From a virus (lineage: Duplodnaviria > Heunggongvirae > Uroviricota > Caudoviricetes), in the IMG/VR virus record IMGVR_UViG_2585427777_000008, positions 1 through 63,513 of that record: a stretch of 63,513 nucleotides of DNA. One strand, 5' to 3'. Positions 6,250-23,423 of this stretch are shown in pieces; within the stretch, counting starts at the first letter, position 1; each line of letters begins with the position of its first letter. The notes below the pieces were generated by a model that saw only the letters and a program-made list of their open reading frames with translations, was not told where the DNA came from and did not search any database. The position numbers and the translations under genes are program-made.

Positions 6250-6294
6250 CATCCTCCACGCCCTGAAGGACGGGGTTTTACGGCGCACCGGATA

Positions 6295-7559: not shown

Positions 7560-7591
7560 TAACTTTAAATAATTGGCATTATTTAAAGTTA
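7560..7591. other. rox: rox-type site-specific recombination site (Dre target)
   Basis: TAACTTTAAATAATTGGCATTATTTAAAGTTA: perfect 14-bp inverted arms around a 4-bp core; its reverse complement is the rox sequence described for phage D6. Lies 150 bp upstream of the recombinase gene. Confidence 0.85.
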
Positions 7592-7743
7592 GGCTATAAT
7601 CATGTGTAGATGAACAGTGTTGACATCACTGAAAATACGTGCCTCGAATCAAAGGCTTGTATTTTGAAAATTAACTTATAGCTACCCTGTCATTTTTATA
7701 TTTTTCGCGTAGCGTCATCTGTATATAGAGGTCAAATAGTTTC

Positions 7744-8772
7744 ATGAGTGAATTAATTATCTCTGGCAGTTCCGGTGGTTTTCTGCGCAACATTGGCAAA
7801 GAGTACCAGGAAGCCGCAGAAAACTTTATGCGGTTCATGAATGACCAGGGAGCTTATGCGCCGAATACTCTGCGCGACCTCCGTTTGGTGTTTCATTCCT
7901 GGGCGCGCTGGTGTCACGCTCGCCAGCTTGCCTGGTTTCCGATCTCACCAGAAATGGCCCGCGAGTATTTTCTTCAGCTGCATGATGCCGATCTGGCTTC
8001 GACCACCATTGATAAGCACTACGCCATGCTGAACATGCTGCTTTCGCATTGTGGCCTTCCACCACTTTCGGATGATAAAAGTGTTTCTCTGGCTATGCGG
8101 CGCATCCGGCGCGAAGCGGCAACTGAAAAAGGCGAACGAACAGGCCAGGCTATACCGCTGCGGTGGGACGATCTGAAACTGCTCGACGTCCTGCTGTCCA
8201 GGTCAGAACGGCTGGTGGATCTGCGCAACCGGGCTTTTCTCTTTGTTGCATACAATACGCTGATGCGTATGTCGGAAATCTCGCGTATTCGTGTAGGAGA
8301 TCTGGACCAAACAGGTGACACTGTCACGCTACATATTTCACACACGAAGACAATAACGACCGCCGCCGGGCTTGATAAGGTGCTTTCCCGTCGCACTACC
8401 GCTGTGCTGAATGACTGGCTGGATGTTTCCGGGCTTCGCGAACATCCTGACGCAGTGCTGTTCCCGCCGATACACCGTAGCAATAAGGCCAGGATCACGA
8501 CAACGCCCCTTACTGCACCTGCAATGGAGAAAATATTCAGCGACGCCTGGGTGTTGCTGAATAAAAGAGATGCTACGCCAAACAAAGGAAGATACCGGAC
8601 GTGGACCGGGCATAGTGCACGCGTCGGGGCCGCTATTGATATGGCTGAAAAGCAGGTGTCTATGGTGGAGATCATGCAGGAAGGAACCTGGAAGAAACCG
8701 GAAACACTTATGCGGTATCTTCGCCGTGGCGGCGTGTCTGTGGGGGCTAATAGCCGCCTGATGGACTCGTAA
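7744..8772 (+). CDS. dre: Cre-family tyrosine recombinase, Dre-like
   Basis: 342 aa colinear with Cre: conserved SLAMRRIRRE, AYNTLMRMSEI, GHSARVGAAIDMA and C-terminal Tyr region (ETLMRYLRR). Adjacent rox site. Confidence 0.9.
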   Translation: MSELIISGSSGGFLRNIGKEYQEAAENFMRFMNDQGAYAPNTLRDLRLVFHSWARWCHARQLAWFPISPEMAREYFLQLHDADLASTTIDKHYAMLNMLLSHCGLPPLSDDKSVSLAMRRIRREAATEKGERTGQAIPLRWDDLKLLDVLLSRSERLVDLRNRAFLFVAYNTLMRMSEISRIRVGDLDQTGDTVTLHISHTKTITTAAGLDKVLSRRTTAVLNDWLDVSGLREHPDAVLFPPIHRSNKARITTTPLTAPAMEKIFSDAWVLLNKRDATPNKGRYRTWTGHSARVGAAIDMAEKQVSMVEIMQEGTWKKPETLMRYLRRGGVSVGANSRLMDS

Positions 8773-8778
8773 ATTAAA

Positions 8779-8788
8779 TTTCTAACAC
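8779..8788. promoter_or_regulatory. operator-like motif TTTCTAACAC
   Basis: Immediately after the dre stop and upstream of the 8846 ORF. Confidence 0.35.
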
Positions 8789-8845
8789 ATCTTTTTAGAT
8801 TAACGCCTTTGCTGTAAAGTACCCTCGCCTATTTAGGAGGGTGCT

Positions 8846-9190
8846 TTGCAGAGTCAAATCACGGAATCAAGACGCTTCAAGGTGGATGGTTACACCGTAA
8901 CCTTCGCCGCTGGTGTTAAGAACAGTCATGCTGTCGTTGTGTTCGGCATCATGACCGGGCTTGAGGCCGTCCCTGTGTTTACCCTCGAAAAAAACTGGCG
9001 AAATCTGGAGGAAGCAGAAAGCTACGTCCGGAAAGTAACCATCATTGCCGCCGAAAAACTCCTGGCCCACTATCAGGAAAATTATCGCACTATGGTCGAG
9101 AAGATTAATCTCGCTTTCACTCGCCCCACTACCGGCTTTATTGCACCGGATACTAATGCAGGTCGATATCCGGCAAGGGGGCGTCGGTGA
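8846..9190 (+). CDS. hypothetical protein
   Basis: 114-aa ORF preceded by RBS-like GGAGG; overlaps the next ORF start. Confidence 0.4.
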   Translation: MQSQITESRRFKVDGYTVTFAAGVKNSHAVVVFGIMTGLEAVPVFTLEKNWRNLEEAESYVRKVTIIAAEKLLAHYQENYRTMVEKINLAFTRPTTGFIAPDTNAGRYPARGRR

Positions 9191-9663
9191 AAACTTATTA
9201 CCCATCTCTGAATTGTTACCCGTCTTCCTATCCAGAATTGTCCGGGAAGCTGTTAGCTCTATTAGCTAAAGCACCTACGGAATGGTTTAAGCCAGTCGTT
9301 ATCAATCCACACTTCCTGGATTACGGATCTGTTCGCACTCGTAACGAACTCAAAAACCTACTGGCGCATGGATTCATTCGACACCGTGCCGGGAAAGGCT
9401 ATCAGTTAGCGATTGCGCCAGACGAGGCCGTGCGGCTATTCGCATATCGTGACAGCCAGACAAAAGCTCGGGTAATAGCTCAAATACTTCATAACGGCAG
9501 CACCTATGCCCGCCAGTTTGGCGGCGACACGTCGCAGTTCTTGCGGGCGGTGCGATCGCTGGAGGAGCAAGGGGTTATTGAAAGTTCCTGTCTTCCTGTT
9601 CCTACCGTTCCACATATCAAACGTCGGGTTTACACCTTCACGCAGAGAGCTAAAAAACAATGA
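9187..9663 (+). CDS. hypothetical protein
   Basis: 158-aa ORF coupled to the flanking ORFs (overlapping stops and starts). Confidence 0.45.
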   Translation: MKTYYPSLNCYPSSYPELSGKLLALLAKAPTEWFKPVVINPHFLDYGSVRTRNELKNLLAHGFIRHRAGKGYQLAIAPDEAVRLFAYRDSQTKARVIAQILHNGSTYARQFGGDTSQFLRAVRSLEEQGVIESSCLPVPTVPHIKRRVYTFTQRAKKQ

Positions 9664-10154
9664 TTTACGTAAAAGTGAAACGCCTACATCCGGCAGCAAA
9701 ACTTCCAGCTTATGCCACCTCCGGATCGGCGGCGATGGATTTTGAGGCTGTTGAAATAAAACCATGCGTCGATAGCAATGGTGCAATTTCCTCAAGCTGG
9801 TGGGTGTATACCGGACTGGCTATGGAGATCCCGCCCGGCTGGTGTCTGAAACTCTATCCGCGATCCGGATTGGGCTGCAAAAAACATACTCGCCTGGCTA
9901 ACTGCGTAGGAATTATCGACTCCGATTATCGCGGTGAAATCATGGCAAAACTGATTACTGATCCCGGCGGGGAAGGCGTTTGTCTCAAGCCTGGAATGGC
10001 TGTCATGCAAGGCATTTTTGAGCGTGTTGAACAAGTCTCACTAGTCGAGGTTGAGGAACTCAACGAAACGGAACGTGGTGCTGGTGGCTTTGGTAGCACA
10101 TCGGAAGGCCACTTTGAAATTAAGCGTTCACCGCTTCAGTACGAAAAGTTATAA
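9660..10154 (+). CDS. dut: dUTP diphosphatase (dUTPase)
   Basis: 164 aa with trimeric-dUTPase motifs GIIDSDYRGEI and C-terminal RGAGGFGSTS. Confidence 0.85.
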   Translation: MIYVKVKRLHPAAKLPAYATSGSAAMDFEAVEIKPCVDSNGAISSSWWVYTGLAMEIPPGWCLKLYPRSGLGCKKHTRLANCVGIIDSDYRGEIMAKLITDPGGEGVCLKPGMAVMQGIFERVEQVSLVEVEELNETERGAGGFGSTSEGHFEIKRSPLQYEKL

Positions 10155-10168
10155 GCAGAGAAAAGACT

Positions 10169-10846
10169 ATGAATAACATGGCAACGAAAGAGCTTTTTAA
10201 GTTCCTTCCCAAATACAAAGCTCACAAAAACGTTAGTGCATCGAAAATCAAAAATGTTGTTATTTTCGGAGTAACTGATGCCCCACTTTGGGGCTGCATC
10301 GAACTCGTTGAACCAAAAGGGGCAACAGTTTGTGTTGACGCAATGTTTTTACAAAAACACCGACCAAAAACTGGCGGGTATCTGATCGTTTATGAAAACG
10401 GTTATCTGTTCTATGCCCCGGAGAAACCATTTGAGGAACGCTATGGCCTGGTTAACGACGCCTCCAAAAATGGAACCACGGTCATCATTACGGATGACAA
10501 CGGCGTGATGATTAATCTTACCGGGAGCGTAACTATTTCTGCTGGTGGCATCACCACCCAGCAAGAAGAAATCGACCTTGAAGCAGCCGACTTTTCTGAC
10601 GCGCTGATGTGGCTGAAGGATGGCAAGAAAGTTGCTCGACGCGGGTGGAACGGCGAAAACCAATTCTGCTGGCTGGTTCCTGAAGGACAGTACCCGGCAC
10701 GAATGGAAGCCATTAAGGGATATTTCCCCGGCGACCTCGTTCCGTATGGTGCTTATTTCGCCTTAAAAAATGCACAAGGTGTAGTTGTTCCGTGGGTTCC
10801 TTCTGTAGGCGACTTACTGGCATGTGACTGGTTTGTAGTGGAGTGA
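10169..10846 (+). CDS. hypothetical protein with DUF2829-like C-terminal region
   Basis: 225 aa; C-terminal segment (ALMWLKDGKKVARRGWNG...GAYFALKNAQGVVVPWVPS) resembles a phage-associated domain of unknown function. Confidence 0.45.
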   Translation: MNNMATKELFKFLPKYKAHKNVSASKIKNVVIFGVTDAPLWGCIELVEPKGATVCVDAMFLQKHRPKTGGYLIVYENGYLFYAPEKPFEERYGLVNDASKNGTTVIITDDNGVMINLTGSVTISAGGITTQQEEIDLEAADFSDALMWLKDGKKVARRGWNGENQFCWLVPEGQYPARMEAIKGYFPGDLVPYGAYFALKNAQGVVVPWVPSVGDLLACDWFVVE

Positions 10847-10852
10847 TTTGAC

Positions 10853-11620
10853 ATGGAAAGCACCAAAACAATTCAATACCGCTTGCGTAATGGCCTGCTG
10901 GTGGCTGTTAACGCCGACATGTCACTGCCGTTTGACACGATTGAACGCACTATCATGACGTATCTCGGCTTTAATGAAGAGCTGAATGAAGAGCATGGCG
11001 TAGCTATATGGAGTGATGCAGACAGCGGCGTTCGTCGTTACATCACCGCCAGGGGCAAAGACTACTCTCTGGAAGAACTGTTTACCCTTGCGCAGTCTTT
11101 CGAATGTGTAGCATTAGACCTGTTTAATGATCCTGCTATAGCGCAACGACTTATACGCGAGCTTGGGCTATCCGTTACACCAATTATCTTTAAAAATGGC
11201 AGCCTGACTGGCACATGGCGCGTAGAACGCATCTCAAACTACCTTCCATATAACCGACAGTTAAATGGAGTAATCTCCGGCGTTAATCAGCCCGTAGCGT
11301 GTGAAAATGTAAACCTAGTTGTCGCTGTTTTGGCAACCGCATGTCGTGTTATCGGTTTGGCTAAACAGGCATTTATTCATTTCCCAAATGGTGCAGAAGG
11401 TAGCGCAGAGATTATCGCGTGTGATTTCGAATTTACCTGGATGCTACGCGAATATCTGGACCAAACAGTATTCCGTGCCGAAGAACTGGATATGTATATC
11501 ACGTCAACGATTCCAGACGATGTGCGAGCTGAAGCAATCGCTACAGCCAGGGCGAAATGCCGTGCGGCAATTGCAGAACAGGCCAAAGAAAAAGTTAAGG
11601 AAGTGGCAGATGGCGACTAA
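10853..11620 (+). CDS. hypothetical protein
   Basis: 255-aa ORF; its stop overlaps the start of the PacB paralog. Confidence 0.5.
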   Translation: MESTKTIQYRLRNGLLVAVNADMSLPFDTIERTIMTYLGFNEELNEEHGVAIWSDADSGVRRYITARGKDYSLEELFTLAQSFECVALDLFNDPAIAQRLIRELGLSVTPIIFKNGSLTGTWRVERISNYLPYNRQLNGVISGVNQPVACENVNLVVAVLATACRVIGLAKQAFIHFPNGAEGSAEIIACDFEFTWMLREYLDQTVFRAEELDMYITSTIPDDVRAEAIATARAKCRAAIAEQAKEKVKEVADGD

Positions 11621-12704
11621 GAGCAATATTTATAAAGATCCGCGCTGGCTGTCGCTGGTGGAGAAATATAAAGACAATTGGGTACTGGCAGCAAAAGAAT
11701 TGTTTGATATTGATTTAAGCCACCAGCAACAACAAATTGTTGAAGCTATACAGCCCAATAATGCAAAAGCTACTGTCACCACTCCGTATGGGATCGGACG
11801 ACCGCAAGTGCTTGCTGTTATTAGTACCCTTTATACGATTATGTATCCTGATTCCCGGACAGTAATTGTTTATCCAAAATCAAATGTTTGCAAAAGAGGA
11901 ATTGTTGCATATGTGTGGCAATGTTGGGAGGCATTGCTGAAAAAACAACCTTTTATCATTGAGTATTTTAAGGTCGGTGATAGCGGTCTGATGTTCAATG
12001 AATTTTGGGGAATGTGCTTTTGTAACTACCGCCTTAACTATGAAGATAGCATTGCAGGTCACTACGCCGACCATCTTTTATTCATTATTGTGGATTCCGC
12101 ACATATCAGCGATCGGGCATACAGCATTGTGTGGGCAAGCATGACTAGTGGTGATTCACGCATATTGCTCACTTCAATTCCGTCACCAGAGGAAATAGGC
12201 TTTTTTTATGATTCACATCATGGACGTGCTTTAGCTGAAGATAATCCGAGTGGTGTATATAAAGCCATTAAGCTGAGTGCGGAGGATTCACCATTTATTA
12301 CCCAAGAATATCTTGATCATTTTGCCGAAAGGTATGGCGGGCGAAATAGTGATGACTATCGTCGTATGATTCTTGGTGAGTTCCCTGGTATTAGGGAGGC
12401 TGTTCTTGAATCAGATATGCCGAAGACAATGCGCTTTTCGATGCCTGATGGTAGTGAATGGACAATGCCATTACGAGTGATAGCCCGGCATCATGCGCAG
12501 CACCACGCCAAAAAACATGGCGTCACGACATTAGAATGGTTGAAATCGCACACTATTCCACTCTTCACTGCAGATCACAATGCTATCGTTGAGTGGGCAA
12601 AAACAATTCCGTGGGAGCATGTCGCTGAATATGCTCACATGCTAAAACCGCCGAAAGACAGGCACGAAATTAGCTGGCTGACAGCCGAAAAAATCATTGA
12701 ATGA
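11610..12704 (+). CDS. PacB-like paralog with degenerate ATPase motifs and no nuclease domain
   Basis: Start taken at the ATG at 11610 (MATKSNIYKDPRWL), not the overlapping upstream ATG. Aligns with the PacB N-terminal half (DPRW, SHQQQ, YFYDSHH) but Walker A is PYGIGRP and Walker B is LFIIVDSAH; the C-terminus is unrelated to the PacB nuclease region. Confidence 0.6.
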   Translation: MATKSNIYKDPRWLSLVEKYKDNWVLAAKELFDIDLSHQQQQIVEAIQPNNAKATVTTPYGIGRPQVLAVISTLYTIMYPDSRTVIVYPKSNVCKRGIVAYVWQCWEALLKKQPFIIEYFKVGDSGLMFNEFWGMCFCNYRLNYEDSIAGHYADHLLFIIVDSAHISDRAYSIVWASMTSGDSRILLTSIPSPEEIGFFYDSHHGRALAEDNPSGVYKAIKLSAEDSPFITQEYLDHFAERYGGRNSDDYRRMILGEFPGIREAVLESDMPKTMRFSMPDGSEWTMPLRVIARHHAQHHAKKHGVTTLEWLKSHTIPLFTADHNAIVEWAKTIPWEHVAEYAHMLKPPKDRHEISWLTAEKIIE

Positions 12705-12749
12705 TATCAACAAAAAGCCCGCCTGGTCTGGCGGGCTTCTTTATGCGCC

Positions 12750-13139
12750 TTAAATCACAGGTCTATAATCAAACTCCCCACTTCGGGCATCATTAATGAC
12801 ATGAGTGATCACACCAAAAACAGCATTACTGCCCGTGCATCCATCGTCATCTACTGGTAACGCCTCTTTCTTCCCGGTGCTTAAATCCTCCAGGTGCTGG
12901 CGCGGATATTTCCTGTATCTCTTTATGCGATATTCACCCTCCATAGCGCATATAAGCAGTGAACCATCAACCGGAGTAAGTGAGGAATCAACCACCAGCA
13001 AAGCACCTTGCAATATTCCCTCACGGTGATGGCTGTCTGCCGCCCGCATGAAGTAGGTCGCGGAAGGATGTCTGATTAGTTGCTGATCAAGAGAAATGCG
13101 GCTCTCTGCATAATCCGCCGCAGGAGAAGGGAAGCCCAT
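12750..13139 (-). CDS. humD: UmuD'-like SOS mutagenesis protein (HumD-like, S24 peptidase fold)
   Basis: 129 aa starting GFPSPAADY, colinear with the processed UmuD' form (HPSATYF...VFGVITHVI). Confidence 0.85.
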   Translation of the reverse strand: MGFPSPAADYAESRISLDQQLIRHPSATYFMRAADSHHREGILQGALLVVDSSLTPVDGSLLICAMEGEYRIKRYRKYPRQHLEDLSTGKKEALPVDDDGCTGSNAVFGVITHVINDARSGEFDYRPVI

Positions 13140-13262
13140 AGCGTTTTACCTTAATGATACTGTTTATTCATACAGTATACATTGAAAAGGCATAGTTTGT
13201 GAAAGCGGGGTTTGTAGGCGCGCCACGCTGGGGGCTAATCACATTTCTCCCCCATCTTGCCG

Positions 13263-13529
13263 TTATTTTTTTGGTGCATCCTCGTTCTGATACACCGGAT
13301 CGCTCCCTTTTGGCAACTGGAGGCTTAACTGCCGGTAGTGCCGTAGCCGTTCCATGAAATAGGTGCGCAGATTCTCTGGTTGCTCGCGGGCTACCTGTTC
13401 AGCTATGACAGGTATGTTCAATCGCTCTTTGTACGCCACACCGCTGGCAGCCAGATCAACGTTAACCTTATCCCGTTCTTCCTGACTTTTGGCTGCAATA
13501 TTCCAGTCGCTCATGTTTAAGGCTCGCAT
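13263..13529 (-). CDS. hypothetical protein
   Basis: 88-aa ORF at the distal end of the long minus-strand operon. Confidence 0.4.
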
Positions 13530-13789
13530 TTCCAGATGGTATTCTGAACGCCTGTTCCGGGCGCAAGATGAGGATTAGCGTTAGCACTATGCTGATATAC
13601 GGCTTTAGACTTTCCGTATTGCTGGCAGGCTTTATCCGCTGTTTTTTGCAGGCTATCCAGGCCATACCAACCATCTGACTGGATGCTAACCTTTTCTCCG
13701 TCATTGTATTGCACCATAGCACACCCAGACATAGCCAACATCGCACCGACAATAACGCTTTTACCTAAAAATCTACGCAACATATACAA
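13517..13789 (-). CDS. putative lipoprotein
   Basis: 90 aa; N-terminal signal-like segment ending in a lipobox-like LAMSGC. Confidence 0.5.
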
Positions 13790-13886
13790 AAATCCCCTCT
13801 GTGAATTGAGGGGATTTTAGCATGGTGATCAGATATCAGCTTTATTCAGAATTTTACCCACCAGCTATGTGATTTTTTCTGACAGG

Positions 13887-14726
13887 TCATCTTTTATACT
13901 TGCACTTATGACATGCGAATCTCCACTGTTCATGGTCAAAGCACCAGAATACTTCCCTGGGCAGATTGTGTTTTTTCATTTGCGCCAGCACGTGCGTTGG
14001 CGTATTTGCGGGGATTTCTGGTAGCAAAGCCTTAGCCATTTCATGAATTAACATAGCATCTATTACCCCAAGCGTATGCCCCGCCTTAATCTTTAATGCG
14101 GTTTCAAGATGGCCCCTTTCCAGAGTTGTACTCACTCTTGGCTTCGGCGCTTGTGGATGGGTATCCAGACGGTTGCCAGATTCATAGGCTACCCGCAGCC
14201 AGTGCATGAATGTTTCCGTAGACACACAACCGCAGTCCTGGTCGATTTTTTCGTGTTGCTGCCCCAGCCACTGCTCAAAATTTAACTTGTTGGATGCTTC
14301 TAGAGCCTCTTCGTATTGTTTGCGCGAAATTATTTCCGTGTATTCCTCACGATCAAGGTTACTTATCGGGAGTCTGACCTCAAGGCAAAAATGGCGTCCT
14401 CGCAGGCTTTTTGCTGGGTCAGAGCCAAAAGCAAAGAGGCCATATGATGGTTCATACTCGTCCTCTCTAACCATGCGACAATCGAGCACATCATCAGGCC
14501 ACCCTCCACGCTTTGGCAGCTCCTGCACCAACAAGTCAATCAGCTTTATGGTTTCACCATCCTTGCAGGTTGCTAACGCTATTTTGGCAAGCTCCAACAC
14601 CTCATCTGCCGTATATCCAGCACCGTGTCCATACATTTCGATGCGTGCAATAATCTCTGATATGCGCAATTTAGTGATTCTGGTCATTTCTTGTTGCTCC
14701 ATTTCTTTTCGCATTCTTTGGTCCAA
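13887..14726 (-). CDS. hypothetical protein with C-terminal Cys/His cluster
   Basis: 279 aa; C-terminus WCFDHEQWRFACHKCKYKR suggests a small metal-binding knuckle. Confidence 0.45.
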   Translation of the reverse strand: MDQRMRKEMEQQEMTRITKLRISEIIARIEMYGHGAGYTADEVLELAKIALATCKDGETIKLIDLLVQELPKRGGWPDDVLDCRMVREDEYEPSYGLFAFGSDPAKSLRGRHFCLEVRLPISNLDREEYTEIISRKQYEEALEASNKLNFEQWLGQQHEKIDQDCGCVSTETFMHWLRVAYESGNRLDTHPQAPKPRVSTTLERGHLETALKIKAGHTLGVIDAMLIHEMAKALLPEIPANTPTHVLAQMKKHNLPREVFWCFDHEQWRFACHKCKYKR

Positions 14727-15058
14727 TTTTCAATGTTCCTTTTGGCAATATCAGTCATTCCATCACCTAAGAAATACTTATTCCGGTATGCCTTGCACTT
14801 AAACCACACTACAACAGCCACCAGCCAGAAAATAAAAGGCCAAAAAACAATTCCAACGAGTGAGACAATAAAGCCAAATATCCACAAATGAAGCTCGCCT
14901 ACTTCTGTTTCCGGTAATATCTTTAAAGAGTTAAGCAGCAGGATGAATGAATGGTCGTATGCATTTGCGGCATAAGACATGCAATCCATATAATTAAAGT
15001 CATAGCCTGCGGCTGCCGCCCATAATGGACGGTCAAGAAAATGTTTGAATGTCATCAT
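14684..15058 (-). CDS. putative membrane protein
   Basis: 124 aa with a long hydrophobic stretch (LWIFGFIVSLVGIVFWPFIFWLVAVVVWF). Confidence 0.45.
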   Translation of the reverse strand: MMTFKHFLDRPLWAAAAGYDFNYMDCMSYAANAYDHSFILLLNSLKILPETEVGELHLWIFGFIVSLVGIVFWPFIFWLVAVVVWFKCKAYRNKYFLGDGMTDIAKRNIENWTKECEKKWSNKK

Positions 15059-15140
15059 ATAAAATTACTCAATTACACAGTGTTGCAGCCCCCTGCCGTA
15101 ACGACAGGGGTAATAATATTGCTGGTGGTTTGAATCTTTC

Positions 15141-15299
15141 TCATGAAAGAATAAAAGCTAACATGCCCGCGAGTAATAAGGTGTCACCAACCATTACGCC
15201 GCAGTTCTCCGTTCCCCATTCTACGCCACCAGCTAAAGCAACAAAAAAGCCACAAACACAGACAAATAAAAACGTAGACCAAAACTTTTTATTTTTCAT
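15141..15299 (-). CDS. possible small membrane protein (52 aa)
   Basis: ATG overlaps the stop of the upstream gene (TAATG); translation MKNKKFWSTFLFVCVCGFFVALAGG... has two hydrophobic segments. Not in the ORF track. Confidence 0.3.
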   Translation of the reverse strand: MKNKKFWSTFLFVCVCGFFVALAGGVEWGTENCGVMVGDTLLLAGMLAFILS

Positions 15300-15592
15300 T
15301 ACGGATTGCTCCAGTTATCTTCAATAGCAATACTTAATCTCTGTAGCCATTCTGCTAATTTAAGCATTGCTTCTCTTTCGCTTAAACCACGCGGAAAATC
15401 ATCAAGCGCTATTGTTGGCTTGAAGTTACCAAAATTATCCATTTCAACGGTAAGATTTTGCTCCAGCACGGTATTCCTTACGCGGCTATTGTGCCGGAGC
15501 AAATATACTGAGCGTGATTTATTGGTTTTGTGGTCTAACGTATATTCGGTAAGTATCATCTGGCTTCTGCCATGACTATTACCACGCCACAT
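15299..15592 (-). CDS. hypothetical protein
   Basis: 97-aa ORF in the operon. Confidence 0.4.
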   Translation of the reverse strand: MWRGNSHGRSQMILTEYTLDHKTNKSRSVYLLRHNSRVRNTVLEQNLTVEMDNFGNFKPTIALDDFPRGLSEREAMLKLAEWLQRLSIAIEDNWSNP

Positions 15593-15604
15593 AATTACTC
15601 CGTG

Positions 15605-16045
15605 TTAATAAGAGAAATAGACCGTTGCAACACTGTTATATTGGTCGAACGAAATAGCATTTACTTCATAGCTGGTGGGCAGCTTCTTACCAAGAATGTA
15701 GCCAGGCCATGAGTTCCACGGAATTTCTGTTCGGTCGTCGTCTTGCCACATTACACAACCAAGAGAACCAACCATTTCGCTATTCCTCTTTCCGCAAGTA
15801 ACAAAGCCTATATTCGGTTTTGATTGTGTGACTGATACCGTGGTGGTGTTTGCGGAAGCATTGGTTGCAGCACGCCGCGCTTGCTCGCTGGCGATAGAAG
15901 CATTTACTGCCGCCGTGGTCGCCGCTGTTGCCGCCGCTGTTGCCGCCGCTGTTGCCGCCGCTCCAGCGGCAATAACTGACGCGTGGGATAAATGACTGGC
16001 TGATAACATAGCCAGAAAAATAATAGCTCTTTGAAATTTAGCCAT
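15605..16045 (-). CDS. putative secreted protein with (AAAT)n low-complexity repeat
   Basis: 146 aa with an N-terminal signal-like segment; repeat AAATAAATAAATAATTAA encoded by a 12-bp tandem DNA repeat. Confidence 0.5.
   Translation of the reverse strand: MAKFQRAIIFLAMLSASHLSHASVIAAGAAATAAATAAATAATTAAVNASIASEQARRAATNASANTTTVSVTQSKPNIGFVTCGKRNSEMVGSLGCVMWQDDDRTEIPWNSWPGYILGKKLPTSYEVNAISFDQYNSVATVYFSY
15918..15962. repeat. 12-bp tandem repeat (GTTGCCGCCGCT, about 3.7 copies) inside a coding region
   Basis: Direct tandem copies read on the + strand; in-frame, so copy-number change would alter repeat length without a frameshift. Confidence 0.6.
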
Positions 16046-16319
16046 TGATATTAACCTTTATCGCAAATACCTTAACCGGATTCTCTCCAAAGTGCGGATG
16101 TGTAATTGTCTTTATTTCATACCCTTCATACGGGACGTCTATTCTGCGACTGGAATCGTCGCGCTTCGGATATCCCTTTGTGATAATCAGGCGGTCATAT
16201 TCCCGGAACATGATTCGCTTATTCCAGTAGCCATTACACAAGCGATACTCTTCCGTTTTCTCTCCGCGAATCATGGCATCGAAGTATTCACCTTTGACGG
16301 CAAGTTGCAGGTTAGCCAC
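16038..16319 (-). CDS. ASCH/PUA-like domain protein
   Basis: 93 aa; N-terminal LAVKGEYFDAMIRGEKTEEYR resembles the ASCH-type G-x-K-x-x-E-x-R signature. Confidence 0.45.
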   Translation of the reverse strand: MANLQLAVKGEYFDAMIRGEKTEEYRLCNGYWNKRIMFREYDRLIITKGYPKRDDSSRRIDVPYEGYEIKTITHPHFGENPVKVFAIKVNING

Positions 16320-17115
16320 GGTTAACCTCCTGCGGCGGCTCTGGTAGTGGCATCCAATTGATTACATCGCATTCAGGGATGCTGATATCATCACCAAGCC
16401 ACCCTTGACCTTCAGACCAGCATTGCACGTAATACCCGTATTCTGTGTTCACTACGCACCACTGCGCGTCGTTCGGCATTCGCTCACTACAGCTTATCCA
16501 ACTATCCGGAGTTACCGGATAGTTGCGCATTGCGACCTTTAATGCCTCATAGAAGCAACCTTTCAGATTGTTGAACTGACGCCCATTAAGAGGGCCGTGT
16601 TCAGTAAGCATGTTGCGTAATTTCCATGCCGCGTCGTTTACTTCGTTGGATGACAGGGGAGGCAACTTGTAAGTTTGGCTTACAGGTTCGGCACCATGAA
16701 GCATGGCGCCGCTCCGCTCTATGCCATCCAGCGCGATTCGCAGTGCCTGAATTGTGGTAGAGCTATCGTTTGGGGCTATTCCATATCGCTCGAATACAGC
16801 TAAATGGTTGCGCATAATCTCAGGCGTAAGCTCTTTGTAAGCATAAGCAAGAGGCTCTGATGCATTATCCGGCACAACCGACGCAGGCGCGGCAGCATAA
16901 ACAGGAATAACGTCCGCTTGCTCTTTATTGCTTTCATCCGTTAAAGCCCAGAATAATTTCCCGGCCGGATGTTTGAAAATATAAGCAACTGGATCTGCTT
17001 CCAGCGATGCCAGTGCAATTTCATAAGCACGGCGCTCAATATTGTCTCGAACGTCCAGGCTGCTGATACGCTCTTTGATTTCTTTAATCAGTTCTTTGTC
17101 GGTGAAAGTGGTCAT
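16312..17115 (-). CDS. hypothetical protein with DUF551-like Cys/Trp-rich C-terminus
   Basis: 267 aa; C-terminal WISCSERMP...WCVV...CWSEGQGW pattern typical of a prophage domain of unknown function. Confidence 0.45.
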   Translation of the reverse strand: MTTFTDKELIKEIKERISSLDVRDNIERRAYEIALASLEADPVAYIFKHPAGKLFWALTDESNKEQADVIPVYAAAPASVVPDNASEPLAYAYKELTPEIMRNHLAVFERYGIAPNDSSTTIQALRIALDGIERSGAMLHGAEPVSQTYKLPPLSSNEVNDAAWKLRNMLTEHGPLNGRQFNNLKGCFYEALKVAMRNYPVTPDSWISCSERMPNDAQWCVVNTEYGYYVQCWSEGQGWLGDDISIPECDVINWMPLPEPPQEVNRG

Positions 17116-17116
17116 A

Positions 17117-17419
17117 TCACTCTCCTTTTCCCGCTGCTTTCGCCTGCTCTTTAGCGAGTCGCTCCGCTTCTCTGAAATCCCAATCCACTCGATGTGCTAT
17201 ATCAAGTGCAGAACGCACGGTCCGTTCAATTAGCGTATCCAGGTTATCAATTGTCATTGCCATATCTGGATTGCGAGATAAAATCTCCGCCCTCTGAATC
17301 TGCCAGTTGTTGCATGTTTCAAGTAATGAGTTAGCCATATCACTCTCCTTTGATGCGAATGCCAGTGGCGCGTGGCACATTAACTTCCACGATGCGCACT
17401 GTTGGTTTGTACATCTCAA
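17117..17419 (-). CDS. hypothetical protein
   Basis: 100-aa ORF; overlaps the neighbouring ORF by about 80 bp, so the true start is uncertain. Confidence 0.35.
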   Translation of the reverse strand: MRCTNQQCASWKLMCHAPLAFASKESDMANSLLETCNNWQIQRAEILSRNPDMAMTIDNLDTLIERTVRSALDIAHRVDWDFREAERLAKEQAKAAGKGE

Positions 17420-17984
17420 TCGCTGTCAGCCAGTCAGCTCCTGTCATGCGCTTTTCCGCATCGCCATTAGTCCACTGAACCGGTACACCAATAGCCTTCA
17501 TCGCGATTTCTATTTCCCCGGCGATGGCGCTTTTTCCGCAACCAGTAAAACCAGAAACAACGACAAGAACTTCACCTTTGGCTGGTTTTATTTCCCGTGC
17601 TTCCAGTTCTGCTATGCGCTTACTTCCATCCGCGATTACTCCCTCGTAATATTCACGCTGTTCGTTGAGTTTTGATTTTGCCGACTCCAGTTGTTTTGTT
17701 AGTTCCGCAATACGGCAAACATCGTTGATACGCGTTTCCTCTAATGCGTTGATCTCATCCAGTAGTGCCAGCACGGTTTCTGGTCCGGCCAGAAATTTGA
17801 AGGCGTTGAGGGCATCAATATCCACACCGTAATCTTTAAGTTCTTGTTCACTTAACAAATCATCATCAGCTGGCAACATTAACAGGCGTTCCATTGCTGG
17901 AATTGCACGTTCCGCCGCCTCACGCAGTGCCTGGTAATTAATTTCGCTCACTGGTTGCCTCCTTTGCGAAGCTGTTCCGCCCAT
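17340..17984 (-). CDS. Ea22/Ead-like lambdoid early protein (paralog 1)
   Basis: 214 aa; N-terminal INYQALREAAERA signature shared with paralog 2, followed by a coiled-coil. Confidence 0.5.
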   Translation of the reverse strand: MGGTASQRRQPVSEINYQALREAAERAIPAMERLLMLPADDDLLSEQELKDYGVDIDALNAFKFLAGPETVLALLDEINALEETRINDVCRIAELTKQLESAKSKLNEQREYYEGVIADGSKRIAELEAREIKPAKGEVLVVVSGFTGCGKSAIAGEIEIAMKAIGVPVQWTNGDAEKRMTGADWLTAIEMYKPTVRIVEVNVPRATGIRIKGE

Positions 17985-18652
17985 TCTTCAAGGGATTTCT
18001 CCGCATATTCACCAGATAGGCCATCAATCGGATGCGCTTCATTAGCCAACTCTTCTTTCGCTGACAAAATCATGCGTGTAACGTCGAAAACTTCACGCAA
18101 AGACTTATTGATAAATCCGTGATTGAACGCAGCAGCAAGACGGCTGGCGGTATAGTTAATCCCCTCGTTGCGTGCTTCCGCACGAATTTCAGCCAGAAAA
18201 GCATCGGTGGCTGGGGTTTCGCTGTGGTGCAGAGCATCGTTGATAATCATCGCAGCAACTCCGGCCTGCCCTGCATCCGTTACCGACACATGCTCAAGAG
18301 TTACGGCCATTGCGTGTTTCAGTCCGGCGTTCTCTGCCACCAGCGCCGCGATATTAGTTTCAAGCTCTGCAATACGGCACATAGCATCAATATTTGAGTC
18401 CTCCTGACGTTTAATTTCATCCAGTAGTGACAACGCAACTTTTGGTGGGATAGCAGCGATATAACGGGCATTAGCACCAGCATTCCTTTGTCCATCAATG
18501 CCAGGCCAGTCAATAAAGTATCCGCAATGCCTACCCTCAGATGTGCGCGCAGGATAAATGCCGTTATGCCCCGGCAAAATATATGCTACCCATTCATCTT
18601 GCGTTGCCTGCTCCGCTGCCTCGCGCAACTCCTGATAGTTAGTTTCACTCAC
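17948..18652 (-). CDS. Ea22/Ead-like lambdoid early protein (paralog 2)
   Basis: 234 aa starting MSETNYQELREAAEQ; C-terminal region is paralogous to the ORF at 21763..22272. Confidence 0.5.
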   Translation of the reverse strand: MSETNYQELREAAEQATQDEWVAYILPGHNGIYPARTSEGRHCGYFIDWPGIDGQRNAGANARYIAAIPPKVALSLLDEIKRQEDSNIDAMCRIAELETNIAALVAENAGLKHAMAVTLEHVSVTDAGQAGVAAMIINDALHHSETPATDAFLAEIRAEARNEGINYTASRLAAAFNHGFINKSLREVFDVTRMILSAKEELANEAHPIDGLSGEYAEKSLEEWAEQLRKGGNQ

Positions 18653-18839
18653 TATCTGCTCCTTCCGCTTTCTCTGCTTTATCCGCCATGATTTCCAGCT
18701 TTTGTGCTGCTGATGCCGCTAACATTTGAAATTCTTCATCTGTTTCAACTGGAATTGGTACAAACCTGACTCCAATTTGAGCAAGGCTATGCGCCATCTC
18801 TAGACTTGCTCTTAACTCTGCTGGTGAGGCTTTATTCAT
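18645..18839 (-). CDS. hypothetical small protein
   Basis: 64-aa ORF coupled to neighbours. Confidence 0.3.
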   Translation of the reverse strand: MNKASPAELRASLEMAHSLAQIGVRFVPIPVETDEEFQMLAASAAQKLEIMADKAEKAEGADSE

Positions 18840-18935
18840 TTGGCTTCCCCCTTCCGATACATCATGATTACCAGGCCTCCATTTGTAGTAATGCGGATGG
18901 TGCTGCCTGGCTCCATGCTCATGCCTTTATCCCAA

Positions 18936-19931
18936 TCAGTTATTAAACGTGATTACTCCGCGCTCGATGGCGAAGTCAAAAAGCTGGTTAGCGGCTACAT
19001 AAAGGCGTATGCCATGTGCTTTTTCCCATGCCCGGACATCGTGTTCTGCGCTTCTGGCGCAGTCATCGCAAAGAGGAACAGCCCAGCGGTCGTGTTCGTT
19101 TAACGAGCGGGCGCGGTACATGAACGGGTGTTTAACTTTGCCACCGCATCCGATGCACGGACGAGAAACCACAAACCGGAGATAAGCTGGGCTTTTACCG
19201 AGGACCGCTTTTGGTCGGCGCATATAAAGCAGGCCGGAATCCTCATCTACAGACAGGTTGACGATCTGCTCTGCGGTTATGTCCACCAGCTCGCGGGTAC
19301 TGTGCTCCCAGGTGATATCTGATTCTTTCAGCGTACCGGTAGGGATTTCAGTTTTTGGCTGACAAAATGCAATGCGCCCGGCTTCATCTGGCAGCTCATC
19401 TTTCAGATTCCGGCGAATGGCCCAAAAAGTGAGTTCAACCATGCTCAGATCGCGTTCTGGCGGTAGTTTTAACTCGCTCGCAGCCCAGTTCATAACCCAG
19501 TTGGCGCGATTCAGGGATAACTGGTCGTCCAGCTTGCTGTACCCCTTCATCATGTATTCCGCATCATGCTTCCAGCACAGGCGAACGGCAGAGCCGTTAT
19601 AGAAATGAGTGGTTAGCTGGTGGCTGCAATCGCGCTTATCGTGCGCCTGGCAATCGTGGATATTGGAACTTACCCAATGAACAAGCGAATCTTCACCGCC
19701 TAACGCGTTAAATACGCGCTCGCTTTGAAAAAATGGTTTCAGCGACTGGTTGGCAACCAGCGAATAATTCAGATCCACTACGCCATCTGGAGTGTTTTCA
19801 GCCTGTTCTCGCGGAAGTGGTGAGATAATGAAACGGCGACCTGCGCCGATGTAGTTGCTGGTGGGCTTGTCTACCGGAAAGACAGCCACACCAGTTTCAT
19901 TTACGACATATGGGGTGATTATTGCACTCAT
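18936..19931 (-). CDS. hypothetical protein with DUF968-like Cys cluster
   Basis: 331 aa; first gene of the leftward operon; C-terminal CIGCGG...CDDC pattern. Confidence 0.5.
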   Translation of the reverse strand: MSAIITPYVVNETGVAVFPVDKPTSNYIGAGRRFIISPLPREQAENTPDGVVDLNYSLVANQSLKPFFQSERVFNALGGEDSLVHWVSSNIHDCQAHDKRDCSHQLTTHFYNGSAVRLCWKHDAEYMMKGYSKLDDQLSLNRANWVMNWAASELKLPPERDLSMVELTFWAIRRNLKDELPDEAGRIAFCQPKTEIPTGTLKESDITWEHSTRELVDITAEQIVNLSVDEDSGLLYMRRPKAVLGKSPAYLRFVVSRPCIGCGGKVKHPFMYRARSLNEHDRWAVPLCDDCARSAEHDVRAWEKAHGIRLYVAANQLFDFAIERGVITFNN

Positions 19932-19973
19932 AATGCATACCGACTCTGTTTTGTTCCGAGTGGTAAAATAATA

Positions 19974-20003
19974 TGTTAGAAAACTAAAATCAATGTTCTA
20001 ACG
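19974..20003. promoter_or_regulatory. operator-like inverted pair TGTTAGAAAA-N12-TTCTAACG
   Basis: Lies between the phosphatase stop and the start of the 18936..19931 gene, at the head of the leftward operon. Confidence 0.4.
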
Positions 20004-20028
20004 CATTTTGAGTGCGTAAATGATTTGA

Positions 20029-20721
20029 TCAGACTTTAAGCTGCCATCCCTTCACCTGCATTAGCGTCAGATTTCCACAAAAAACCGCGCCCGTGTCTAT
20101 GTAATGCTGATTCCAGTATGCTTTTGGTCTTCGTACCGGTGTGTGCCCAAAGATAAAGCGATCTGCGCCTGTGATTTCTCCACCAATGCCATCTATCGAA
20201 TCACCGACGCGACTGCGCGACCAGACAACATCAAAAAGCGATACATCCTTACCGAACTGGTACTCTCCACCTGGATAGTCGGCATGGGCTATAACGATAG
20301 TTTCATGTCCGGTGTTCAACTCAATGATATATGGCAGACGCTTTACCAGCTCCACCAGCGCCTTGGCTAATATTTCCTGATCAGTGTCCAGCATGAAGAA
20401 CCATTGTCCGCCATTCATTAGCCAGTTATTCACGTTGCCATCTGGACTTAACGCATCAAGCATCAACCGCTCATGGTTCCCCATTACTGCCTTGAACCAG
20501 GGCATCTGCAATAGTTCCAGACATTCGACATTTTCAGTACCGCGATCGATAAGGTCGCCAACCGATATCAGTAAATCCTGCGCCGGGTCAAAATCCACAC
20601 GATGGAGTTCGGACATCAGTCTGGTGTAGCAACCATGCAGATCACCAACTACCCATATGTTTCTGTAGCCAGAACCATCAATACGGCTATATAAATTCAC
20701 TTCATGCATAGCTTGGATCAT
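20029..20721 (-). CDS. Ser/Thr protein phosphatase, lambda PPase-like
   Basis: Start placed at the ATG overlapping the upstream stop (ATGA). Metallophosphatase motifs GDLHGC, GDLIDRG, GNHE; colinear with lambda-type phosphatases. Confidence 0.85.
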
Positions 20722-21029
20722 GCGGCAACCTTCTCCCGCAGCCAGATACAAACTGGACCATCTTCAGTGTCATGAATAGAGCCAACAAACCAGCCTTCAC
20801 CCTCTGGTCGCTCCGGTTCCCAGGCGGCAATATCGGGACCAGCTGCGTCCAGATCAAAATCATCTTCATCCATACTGCGAATAGTCCACTGAAGATTATT
20901 TTCCTTCATCCAGGCGTCAAATTCCTCAGTGGAAATATATTCACGACCTGCGCAAAACTTCTCATACTCCGGATGTGTCCAGCAGCCATATTCATCACGT
21001 TCTACCGGCATTTCTTTAATTGTGTTCAC
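20718..21029 (-). CDS. hypothetical acidic protein
   Basis: 103-aa ORF, translationally coupled. Confidence 0.45.
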
Positions 21030-21250
21030 TCTTCATCCTCCAAATCAGCAATCGCGTCCATCACATCAGAACCGCGAATAACTTCAAAAGCGCGACAGGC
21101 CATTTGAAATACCCGTTGCTCTTGCGGGTGCGGAGACTCCCAATATTTGAAGCCTGGGCGATGCGTGTACCCCATCATGGAATAAAAATCGCCAGCAAGT
21201 TCAATCGCGGCATCAACAAGTTCGCGATTAGTCATTCGCTTTGCTGCCAT
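21026..21250 (-). CDS. hypothetical protein
   Basis: 74-aa ORF, coupled. Confidence 0.4.
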   Translation of the reverse strand: MAAKRMTNRELVDAAIELAGDFYSMMGYTHRPGFKYWESPHPQEQRVFQMACRAFEVIRGSDVMDAIADLEDEE

Positions 21251-21521
21251 TTGCTTTCTCCTGTCGGAACATCACGATCATCAGGTCATCTTTTGTTGCT
21301 ACCCTGGCTGTTGTGCCAGGCTCAATGCGGCTAAGTTCAAAGGCGTCATAGAACGCCTCTAACGCTTTCTGGCGTATCTCCTGTTTGCGGCGCTTTCCCC
21401 ACTGCTTTAGAAAAACAGAGGCCGCCCACTTCCCCGCACTGAACATGATGTAAAACCAACCGAGCAGGGCCAAACCTGTGTTGAGGGCCGTATCGATCGT
21501 TATCGTGGTGTCGATATTCAC
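21228..21521 (-). CDS. putative small membrane protein
   Basis: 97 aa with a hydrophobic N-terminal segment. Confidence 0.4.
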   Translation of the reverse strand: MNIDTTITIDTALNTGLALLGWFYIMFSAGKWAASVFLKQWGKRRKQEIRQKALEAFYDAFELSRIEPGTTARVATKDDLMIVMFRQEKANGSKAND

Positions 21522-21766
21522 TGTGGTGGCTCCTGCTTTTCTGCCTTTAATACCATGCGCGAACCATCATCCAGCTCCCAATTAATTTCACCGCCTTCTG
21601 CCATGACCAGATGCCAGACGAGTTGAGCGGCCTCGTTGGTTACATCACGACCGCGATCATTGCCAACACGACGTTTTGTTCCATCCCCTAAGTCACGCAT
21701 TTTTGCCAACACGATGGTTTTTGATAGCGGTGAAAAACCAAGCTGTAGTCGTGCGGAATTACTCAC
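21518..21766 (-). CDS. hypothetical protein
   Basis: 82-aa ORF, coupled. Confidence 0.4.
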   Translation of the reverse strand: MSNSARLQLGFSPLSKTIVLAKMRDLGDGTKRRVGNDRGRDVTNEAAQLVWHLVMAEGGEINWELDDGSRMVLKAEKQEPPQ

Positions 21767-22272
21767 TGTTTGCCTCCTTTTCCAAGCTGGGCGGCGATAT
21801 CTTCGAGAACGCCATCAGAGAATGAGCGGTCAAAATCGCCTTCCGGCGCATTAGCCATAAACTCAGTAGAGGTAAGAATCATCCGGGCAATATCCGCGGC
21901 GTTCTTCGCAGTATCATCAATAAAACCAGCTACCCAGGCAGCCAGCATTCTGTTCGCCACAAAGTAAGCGCCCTCCTTGCGTGCTTCAGTCTTCACTTCA
22001 TCCAGGAAAGTGTCGGTCGCAGGAGTAGTTTTTTGTGGTGATAGGGCGATACGAATTGTTTCAAGAGCTGGATCTATTTCCACTGTTGGCACCTTGATAA
22101 AACCAAGCTGCACACCATTCATAATGAACGTGCGGCGATCCTCACATATCGCCTTCAGTCTCGCATTCTCCGCAGCCAGCGCCGCGCGCTCTTTCTCAAG
22201 TCGGGAAATTTCCGTTACATACTCAGCGTTACGCTCTGCCAGTTGTGCGGGCGTTAAACCTTCAGACTTCAT
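21763..22272 (-). CDS. Ea22-like C-terminal-domain paralog
   Basis: 169 aa; C-terminal TPATDTFLDEVKTEARKEG...AAQLGKGGKQ closely parallels the C-terminus of the 17948..18652 product. Confidence 0.5.
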   Translation of the reverse strand: MKSEGLTPAQLAERNAEYVTEISRLEKERAALAAENARLKAICEDRRTFIMNGVQLGFIKVPTVEIDPALETIRIALSPQKTTPATDTFLDEVKTEARKEGAYFVANRMLAAWVAGFIDDTAKNAADIARMILTSTEFMANAPEGDFDRSFSDGVLEDIAAQLGKGGKQ

Positions 22273-23226: not shown

Positions 23227-23391
23227 AACATAAGCACTGCGAAAAGCTCAATACCAAGCTCAAGTAGCGCCAACGCCCCGAAAAACAACACATAGAACAG
23301 GCCAATTTCATTCACAGATGGCTGGTGGATCGCACTTAAAGCTATAAGCATCATGTCCTCCAAACAGTTATCAGGAATGATATTAATGTTT

Positions 23392-23423
23392 TGTGTTAGA
23401 AAATCAATTTTGAATATCTAACA
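23392..23423. promoter_or_regulatory. operator-like inverted pair TGTGTTAGAAAA-N13-TCTAACA in a divergent promoter region
   Basis: Between the divergently transcribed 22576..23226 gene and the ref-like gene. Confidence 0.45.

What the first reader, a model, noticed from the sequence alone, without database searches (positions are those of the whole stretch)
13263..16045. Run of small membrane, lipoprotein and secreted proteins at the end of the early operon
Six consecutive coupled ORFs encode a lipoprotein (LAMSGC lipobox), a polytopic membrane protein, a 52-aa hydrophobic peptide missing from the ORF track, and a signal-peptide protein containing an (AAAT)n repeat. Envelope-targeted small proteins in a prophage early operon are typical of superinfection exclusion, entry blocking or lysis control.
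Basis: inference. Interest (0 to 1): 0.45.

Follow-up and report, generated by a model that had tools for sequence, protein, structure and literature searches.

The report
Shuffled accessory envelope genes, plasmid prophage
The stretch is the variable tail of a long operon in a D6/P1-like plasmid prophage, holding seven small genes, four aimed at the cell envelope (one an outer-membrane lipoprotein that may be a distant YecR relative); they move between phages one by one and none matches a protein of known function, so a role in blocking rival phages is plausible but unproven.

Summary
The ORFs are real, conserved and under purifying selection, but the description is only partly right. The window is a phage D6-like (P1-related) plasmid prophage. 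Coordinates 13263-16045 hold seven minus-strand genes, not six.

Four are envelope-targeted:
- a secreted 146-aa protein with a polymorphic (AAAT)n linker
- a 52-aa two-helix membrane peptide
- a 124-aa protein with one ~30-residue hydrophobic stretch, so "polytopic" is not supported
- an 88-aa lipoprotein

They are interleaved with two cytoplasmic proteins and end with Hot, a DNA polymerase III theta homolog. Two gaps carrying hairpins break the "coupling".

Related plasmids gain and lose these genes singly. Their homologs sit in early or accessory regions of unrelated phages (N15, P22-like, Mu-like, virulent Vequintavirinae). This is a mosaic of independent accessory genes, not one system.

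Superinfection exclusion remains a reasonable, untested guess. Interest is modest.

The parts
15605..16045 (-). sec146: a secreted protein. It has a Sec-type signal peptide (MAKFQRAIIFLAMLSASHLSHA|S), a variable Ala/Thr linker, and a conserved ~70-aa C-terminal domain with two invariant Cys.
   Evidence: phrog_8805 (unknown function), E=1.3e-48. Homologs in Av-05, KW1E_UTAR and Mu-like prophages each have their own signal peptide. The AF2 model is poor, pLDDT 55.
15909..15962 (-). 12-bp tandem repeat x4.5 encoding (AAAT)n. It is in frame, and copy number is polymorphic among alleles.
   Evidence: TRF. Homolog lengths of 134-159 aa differ in this linker.
15299..15592 (-). p97: a soluble 97-aa protein of a widespread phage nin/early-region family.
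   Evidence: phrog_1258, E=3.9e-49. Homologs are N15 gp44, phiKO2, and P22-like nin regions. No hydrophobic segment. dN/dS 0.08-0.18.
15141..15299 (-). pep52: a 52-aa membrane peptide with two hydrophobic helices and a KNKK N-terminus. Its start overlaps the p97 stop (TAATG).
   Evidence: It is part of a 234-nt insertion that is absent from SJ46 and other P1/D6-like plasmids.
15090..15110 (-). GC-rich hairpin (CCCCTGTCG-TTA-CGGCAGGGG) that travels with pep52. It has no T tract.
   Evidence: A TC-to-CT change in L004 keeps the pairing through G-U/G-C swaps.
14684..15058 (-). mem124: a membrane protein with one ~30-residue hydrophobic stretch (about residues 57-86, conserved Pro74), a conserved N-terminal 55 aa, and a basic C-terminal tail.
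   Evidence: phrog_2638, E=3.6e-59. Narrow family of 17 clusters. Alignment. dN/dS 0.19-0.25.
13887..14687 (-). p266: a soluble mosaic protein. It shares N-terminal modules with lambdoid ea/DUF551-type proteins, has a PmgU-like part, and has a Cys-rich C-terminus. Its start overlaps the mem124 stop (ATGA).
   Evidence: Nine partial PHROG hits. tblastn hits to the P1 pmgU region and to D6 orf104. The 3' end is replaced relative to related plasmids.
13789..13818 (-). Terminator-like hairpin (AAAATCCCCTC-loop-GAGGGGATTTT, then TGTAT). Its 3' arm contains the lipoprotein gene's ribosome-binding site.
   Evidence: First-listed terminator-like site (11 stem pairs) in the scan. Identical in five related plasmids.
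13517..13783 (-). lipo88: a lipoprotein precursor. The mature protein is 67 aa, with Ala at +2 (predicted outer-membrane sorting), two further conserved Cys, and a beta-beta-alpha-beta-beta fold.
13263..13514 (-). hot: a homolog of DNA polymerase III theta subunit. It is cytoplasmic and not part of any envelope set.
   Evidence: PF06440, E=4.6e-34. 94% identical to P1 Hot.
23391..23404 (+). Operator-like 14-mer TTGTGTTAGAAAAT, lying between the ref-like gene and the head of the leftward operon.
   Evidence: 7 sites in the window against 0.72 expected, and 0 of 100 shuffles reach 7.

Best explanation
The locus is the hypervariable accessory end of the ~10-kb leftward operon of a D6-like (P1-related) plasmid prophage. 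That operon is probably repressor-controlled. The locus occupies the slot that holds upfM-upfO in P1, just upstream of hot-humD.

It is a mosaic of independently exchangeable small genes, not a multi-component system. Four products go to the envelope.
- sec146 is exported by Sec to the periplasm.
- pep52 and mem124 insert in the inner membrane.
- lipo88 is lipidated and, having Ala at +2, is predicted to be sorted by Lol to the inner leaflet of the outer membrane.

lipo88 belongs to a small uncurated family that is probably a distant relative of YecR, the lipoprotein that decorates the outside of the flagellar L ring. By inference, it docks on the periplasmic or membrane-embedded face of an outer-membrane protein assembly.

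The most likely purpose of the envelope-directed genes is competition between phages. They would mask a receptor or block DNA entry of a superinfecting phage, each acting alone.
- Inferred: localisation, timing of expression, and any exclusion activity.
For: Identity of the element and the slot.

Real genes: dN/dS is 0.03-0.42. The ORFs are intact in all related loci examined, apart from a stop in mem124 in L014 and a frameshifted p266 homolog in L015.

Targeting signals are conserved while surrounding sequence varies.

Modularity:
- pep52 is a discrete 234-nt insertion.
- sec146 is absent from L015 and SJ46.
- p97, mem124 and sec146 each occur alone in unrelated phages.
- lipo88 occurs alone in Klebsiella plasmids and in Serratia and Klebsiella prophages.
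- GC is low, 38-41%, over 14650-15550.

YecR link:
- The AF2 model has pLDDT 81.6.
- hhalign gives probability 81.8%, E=1.1e-5.
- The real score of 32.9 exceeds all 100 shuffles, whose maximum is 28.0.
- The lipid Cys, the helix motif A-x-x-A-C-Q-Q-x-G and the C-terminal Cys are shared.

Early expression: sec146 relatives lie in accessory regions of virulent phages and among Mu-like early genes, which fits a periplasmic role during infection. An operator-like motif sits at the operon head.
Against: No homology to any characterised exclusion protein. The PHROG matches are all to unknown-function families, and PADLOC gives nothing.

The YecR link is weak in three ways:
- Foldseek finds no significant PDB or BFVD match.
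- Pfam PF13992 does not hit lipo88.
- Only one of 26 relatives reaches E=0.0039.

YecR's own function is unknown (PMC11756786).

If the operon is repressed in lysogens, the products would not protect a lysogen. A separate promoter for lipo88 is only a weak guess: an extended -10, TGCTAAAAT, by eye, which the scan did not call.

No topology predictor or experiment was available.
Confidence: 0.45

Rival explanations
1. Host-benefit (lysogenic conversion) genes. The lipoprotein and membrane peptides would change envelope properties for the host's sake. Examples are serum or stress resistance as with lambda Bor, outer-membrane barrier maintenance, or modulation of the flagellar basal body through a YecR-like contact, rather than acting against phages.
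For: lipo88 travels as a single gene on large non-phage Klebsiella IncFIB/IncHI1B plasmids and at prophage ends, which are typical moron positions. It shows very strong purifying selection, dN/dS 0.03-0.06. It has a YecR-like fold. A conserved hairpin just upstream separates it from the operon.
Against: No match to Bor, Iss, Lom or TraT families. sec146 relatives in strictly virulent phages cannot be lysogenic-conversion genes. No promoter was detected by the scan.
Confidence: 0.22
2. One coordinated envelope-spanning system. The secreted protein, the two inner-membrane proteins and the lipoprotein would assemble into a single complex, as the 'run of coupled ORFs' implies.
For: The genes are co-oriented and tightly packed, with overlaps ATGA at mem124/p266 and TAATG at p97/pep52. 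p97-mem124-p2xx-lipo88 recur together in several P1/D6-like plasmids.
Against: pep52 and sec146 are individually present or absent. SJ46 has p97, mem124 and a p266 homolog but no lipo88 or hot. Outside the P1/D6 group each gene occurs alone with unrelated neighbours. A terminator-like hairpin splits the set.
Confidence: 0.08
3. Lysis timing or control. The small membrane proteins would act as holin, antiholin or spanin-like factors.
For: Small two-helix membrane peptides and lipoproteins are the typical shapes of holins and o-spanins. The Ala/Gly/Thr-rich N-terminus of sec146 loosely recalls signal-anchor-release domains. This rests on inspection only.
Against: There is no endolysin or i-spanin gene nearby. 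No holin or spanin Pfam or PHROG family is hit. lipo88 is not embedded in or next to an Rz-like gene, and it is a folded 67-aa domain rather than a Pro-rich o-spanin. In P1 the lysis genes lie elsewhere (own knowledge of the P1 map).
Confidence: 0.06
4. Toxin-antitoxin or abortive-infection module. pep52 or mem124 would be a membrane-depolarising toxin, held in check by the adjacent soluble p97 or p266.
For: pep52 is a short hydrophobic peptide with an adjacent conserved GC hairpin, and it arrives as a mini-cassette. Soluble and membrane partners alternate along the locus.
Against: p97 and mem124 occur without each other and without pep52 in other phages. There is no Rfam antisense or type I family and no PADLOC hit. 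pep52 is translationally coupled to p97 rather than having its own regulated leader.
Confidence: 0.08

Closest known systems
YecR (PF13992), the lipoprotein bound to the outside of the Salmonella flagellar L ring (PDB 7bgl)
   Different: lipo88 is below the Pfam threshold and Foldseek finds no match. Identity is 18%, and YecR is longer with extra Cys. lipo88 is carried by phages and plasmids and has no flagellar gene context. YecR's own function is unknown (PMC11756786).
Phage outer-membrane lipoproteins that exclude superinfecting phages: Cor (phi80/N15/T1 group) and Llp (T5)
   Same: Both are small phage-encoded lipoproteins presumed to sit in the outer membrane. The proposed logic is the same: bind an outer-membrane protein from the periplasmic side and block entry.
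Early envelope-targeted exclusion proteins: T4 Imm and Spackle, P1 Sim, HK97 gp15
   Same: These are small proteins that are secreted or membrane-inserted and encoded among early or accessory genes. sec146 relatives likewise occur in virulent phages and in Mu-like early regions.
   Different: There is no detectable homology. The comparison is by analogy only.
The P1 upfM-upfN-upfO slot between pmgV and hot
   Same: The genomic position is the same, at the end of the pmgT-hot operon and immediately upstream of hot/humD. Both hold small genes of unknown function.
   Different: The gene content is completely different. P1 has the late promoter LPhot here, and no P1-type late-promoter box was found in this region.

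Membership tests
Bacterial lipoprotein (signal peptidase II substrate) | Positively charged n-region, hydrophobic h-region, and a lipobox [LVI..][ASTVI..][GAS]C | tested here: met
   The sequence is [20 protein letters not shown]|C. The Cys is invariant and the preceding Gly is conserved in at least 90% of 27 relatives, while the rest of the signal peptide varies. The same holds in distant relatives. No SignalP or LipoP run and no biochemical test was possible.
YecR-like lipoprotein (PF13992) | Match to the Pfam model above the gathering score (27 bits) | tested here: not met
   lipo88 gets no PF13992 hit even at E<=10. One of 26 family members hits at E=0.0039, below threshold.
YecR-like lipoprotein (PF13992) | Same fold and profile-level homology to YecR | tested here: inconclusive
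YecR-like lipoprotein (PF13992) | Association with the flagellar L ring | not testable with these tools
   This needs cryo-EM or pull-down experiments. No flagellar genes lie near any copy examined.
Sec-exported periplasmic protein (sec146) | Cleavable N-terminal signal peptide with small residues at -3 and -1 | tested here: met
   By inspection, the n-region is MAKFQR, there is a hydrophobic core, and the cleavage site is S-H-A|S. Distant homologs have different but equally typical signal peptides. No SignalP was available.
Polytopic inner-membrane protein (mem124) | Two or more separate membrane-spanning helices | tested here: not met
   There is a single hydrophobic stretch of about 30 residues with a conserved Pro in the middle. 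That is too short for two full spans. No topology predictor was available.
Known superinfection-exclusion or defence families (Cor, Llp, Imm, Sp, SieA/B, Sim; PADLOC systems) | Sequence match to a family annotated with that function | tested here: not met
   The PHROG matches for all six non-Hot proteins are to unknown-function families. PADLOC gives no hits. Pfam and NCBIfam give nothing above threshold.
Phage lysis cassette (holin, antiholin, spanin) | Adjacency to an endolysin gene, and a match to a holin or spanin family | tested here: not met
   There is no lysozyme or endolysin family in 12750-17115, and no holin or spanin hit.
Type I toxin-antitoxin (pep52) | Small hydrophobic toxin with its own leader and an antisense RNA | tested here: inconclusive
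   The peptide shape fits. However, there is no Rfam family, and its start codon overlaps the p97 stop, which argues for simple co-translation.

The most novel reading that the evidence does not exclude
lipo88 represents a phage-borne branch of the YecR lipoprotein superfamily. It would dock on an outer-membrane ring or barrel assembly, such as the flagellar L ring or a phage receptor, from the inner leaflet. That would give plasmid prophages and lambdoid prophages across Enterobacterales a new type of receptor or conduit lock. Separately, the sec146 family could be a new Spackle-like periplasmic early protein shared by P1/D6-like, Mu-like and virulent phages.
Probability: 0.15. Interest if true: 0.6.

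Novelty: new member of a known kind. Interest (0 to 1): 0.3.

Why it matters
If any of these proteins excludes phages, it would add uncharacterised, very compact single-gene exclusion factors. They are carried by P1/D6-like phage-plasmids, which are common in clinical and livestock E. coli and Salmonella and also spread resistance genes. That bears on phage-therapy host range.

The possible YecR link would also give a first functional handle on YecR, whose role at the flagellar L ring is unknown.

As it stands, the locus is an ordinary example of the mosaic accessory ("moron", nin/ea-type) gene content of temperate phages.

Tried and rejected
- tblastn of lipo88 against 50,697 phage records found nothing. 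The family lives in plasmids and prophages instead.
- PDB sequence searches with single proteins and with profiles gave nothing. The 'Cake' designed-repeat hits are spurious, with 0 stretches.
- The AF2 model of sec146 was too poor (pLDDT 55) for a fold search.
- The afdb50 fold library was unavailable.
- Foldseek against BFVD and PDB gave no significant hit for lipo88.
- Rfam found nothing in 12700-17200.
- The P1 C1 operator consensus and the P1 late-promoter -22 box are absent from the region. This element therefore does not use P1's exact regulatory sites. A different operator-like 14-mer was found instead.
- I looked for a conserved partner gene next to p97 or mem124 in other phages and found none.
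- The P1 genome paper (PMC523184) is not held. The D6-like population paper and the P1 mutagenesis paper say nothing about this region.
Full report
**What the element is**

The finding region matches P1-like phages and about 90-kb E. coli plasmids. The best phage match for window 7576-24000 is phage D6, at 96% identity. D6 is a P1-related circular plasmid prophage (annotation).

All genes from about 23360 down to 12750 lie on the minus strand. In P1 the equivalent stretch is the C1-operator-controlled pmgT-pmgU-pmgV-upfM-upfN-upfO-hot operon, followed by LexA-controlled humD.

The P1 C1 operator consensus is absent from the window. A different 14-mer, TTGTGTTAGAAAAT, occurs 7 times against 0.72 expected. 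One site lies between the ref-like gene and the head of the leftward operon (23391-23404). Another lies just upstream of the ORF at 6321-7358, which I take to be c1 from the D6 c1 match. "End of an early, repressor-controlled operon" is therefore a reasonable reading, by analogy plus this motif. It is not demonstrated.

**Anatomy of 13263-16045**

Seven minus-strand genes lie here. They are listed below in transcription order.

| Gene | Coordinates | Nature | Junction with the next gene |
|---|---|---|---|
| sec146 | 15605-16045 | Secreted | 12-nt gap to p97 |
| p97 | 15299-15592 | Soluble | Stop overlaps the pep52 start (TAATG) |
| pep52 | 15141-15299 | Two hydrophobic helices | 82-nt gap with a GC hairpin at 15090-15110 |
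| mem124 | 14684-15058 | Membrane | Stop overlaps the p266 start (ATGA) |
| p266 | 13887-14687 | Soluble | 103-nt gap with a terminator-like hairpin at 13789-13818 |
| lipo88 | 13517-13783 | Lipoprotein | 2-nt gap to hot |
| hot | 13263-13514 | Pol III theta homolog, PF06440, E=4.6e-34 | End of the locus |

- sec146 overlaps the upstream ASCH gene by 8 nt.
- The ribosome-binding site of lipo88 lies in the 3' arm of the terminator-like hairpin.

Four of seven is not statistically unusual (binomial P about 0.13 at a 30% background, my arithmetic).

**Are they real genes?**

Yes.
- Pairwise dN/dS against alleles in related plasmids is 0.03-0.06 for lipo88, 0.08-0.18 for p97, 0.19-0.25 for mem124 and 0.42 for pep52.
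- lipo88 is intact in all five related P1/D6-like plasmid loci examined that carry it, even where PGAP leaves it unannotated.
- pep52 has alleles of 63-98% identity in 44 plasmids.

**Envelope targeting**

*lipo88.* The n-region is MLRR..K, followed by a hydrophobic core and the lipobox A-M-S-G-C. The Cys is invariant and the preceding Gly is conserved in at least 90% of relatives, although the signal peptides differ freely. Position +2 is Ala in most relatives, which predicts outer-membrane sorting by the E. coli +2 rule (established knowledge). Two further Cys (C53, C86) are invariant across the wider family, which suggests a periplasmic disulfide.

*sec146.* It has a classical Sec signal peptide (SHA|S). 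Homologs in virulent phages have unrelated but equally typical signal peptides. Next comes an Ala/Thr linker encoded partly by a 12-bp repeat of 4.5 copies. The repeat is in frame and its copy number differs among alleles, giving proteins of 134-159 aa. Last is a conserved ~70-aa domain with two invariant Cys.

*pep52.* It has a KNKK N-terminus and two hydrophobic helices.

*mem124.* It has one ~30-residue hydrophobic stretch with a conserved central Pro and a very basic C-terminal tail. "Polytopic" is not supported.

No dedicated predictor was available, so localisation remains inferred.

**Not one system but a mosaic**

- pep52 plus its hairpin is a clean 234-nt insertion between p97 and mem124. 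It is absent from SJ46 and from plasmids L013 and L015.
- sec146 is absent from L015 and SJ46.
- p97 occurs alone in N15 (gp44), phiKO2, P22-like nin regions, mEp235 and HK225.
- mem124 occurs alone in Yersinia, Klebsiella and Proteus phages.
- The sec146 C-terminal domain occurs in the virulent Vequintavirinae phage Av-05, in 45-kb phages (KW1E_UTAR, KLB16/22), and in the early region of Mu-like prophages.
- lipo88 occurs alone on large Klebsiella IncFIB/IncHI1B plasmids, at the end of a Serratia prophage, and in Klebsiella lambdoid prophages.
- Neighbouring genes of p97 and mem124 elsewhere are unrelated to each other.
- GC drops to 38-41% over 14650-15550, against 46-51% in the flanks.
- p266 is itself a mosaic of ea-type modules with a PmgU-like part. 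Its 3' end is replaced relative to related plasmids.

**Function**

None of the six non-Hot proteins matches a Pfam or NCBIfam family above threshold, or any PADLOC family. The PHROG matches are all to families of unknown function. PDB sequence and profile searches are empty.

The one positive lead concerns lipo88. Its AF2 model is confident (pLDDT 81.6, beta-beta-alpha-beta-beta fold).

Evidence for a link to YecR:
- An exhaustive profile search found only 39 representative clusters, a small and uncurated family.
- With those distant members added, hhalign against E. coli YecR rises from 38% to 82% probability.
- The real score of 32.9 exceeds all 100 shuffled controls (mean 20.2, maximum 28.0).
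- The shared motif is (T/I)AD(K/R)ACQQxG plus the C-terminal Cys.

Evidence against:
- Foldseek sees nothing.
- Pfam PF13992 does not reach threshold.

I rate distant homology to YecR as probable but unproven. YecR sits on the outside of the flagellar L ring, and a yecR mutant still forms the L ring (PMC11756786). The similarity therefore suggests a way of acting, namely docking on an outer-membrane assembly, rather than a function.

**Verdict**

The interpretation (envelope proteins, perhaps exclusion) is plausible but rests on analogy only. Lysis control is unlikely because there is no endolysin and no holin or spanin family hit. A toxin-antitoxin or Abi role for pep52 cannot be excluded.

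The locus is a typical mosaic accessory region of a phage-plasmid. Its novelty is limited to uncharacterised members of known kinds of phage accessory proteins, plus the possible YecR relationship.

Noticed in passing
window 13158-13177: A near-perfect LexA box (TACTGTTTATTCATACAGTA) lies between hot and humD, as in P1. The lxr gene that P1 has here is missing.
   Followed up: partly
window 2899, 7376, 8777, 23391, 33746/33768 (inverted pair), 43678: An operator-like 14-mer, TTGTGTTAGAAAAT, occurs 7 times against 0.72 expected. Sites I checked lie between ORFs, including just upstream of the ORF I take to be c1. It is probably the D6-type C1 operator, which is distinct from P1's ATTGCTCTAATAAATTT.
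   Followed up: partly
window 10853-12704 and 12750-13139: Directly beyond humD the window has plus-strand genes of 255 aa and about 360 aa, instead of the phd-doc-pdcA addiction module that follows humD in P1, D6 and several related plasmids. Plasmid L013 shares this arrangement.
   Followed up: no
L018-L021 (Klebsiella lambdoid prophages), about 4795-6261: The lipo88 homolog there lies about 1 kb from another DNA pol III theta (hot-like) gene. A loose lipoprotein-hot linkage therefore recurs in an unrelated phage type.
   Followed up: no
window 15090-15110: A GC hairpin without a T tract travels with pep52. A TC-to-CT difference in L004 preserves the pairing. Its role is unknown and there is no Rfam match.
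   Followed up: partly
window 13795-13803 (minus strand): A possible extended -10 (TGCTAAAAT) overlaps the 5' arm of the hairpin upstream of lipo88. A transcript starting there would lack that arm and leave the ribosome-binding site free, whereas read-through RNA would fold and hide it. This is purely an inference from the sequence.
   Followed up: no
L001, L013, L014 (RefSeq plasmids): The intact, strongly conserved lipo88 gene is left unannotated by PGAP in several related plasmids.
   Followed up: yes
window 13887-14687: p266 ends in a Cys/His-rich tail (CFDHEQWRFACHKCKYKR) that looks like a small zinc-binding motif. Its C-terminus differs from that of the p2xx alleles in related plasmids, with the recombination breakpoint inside the gene.
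   Followed up: partly
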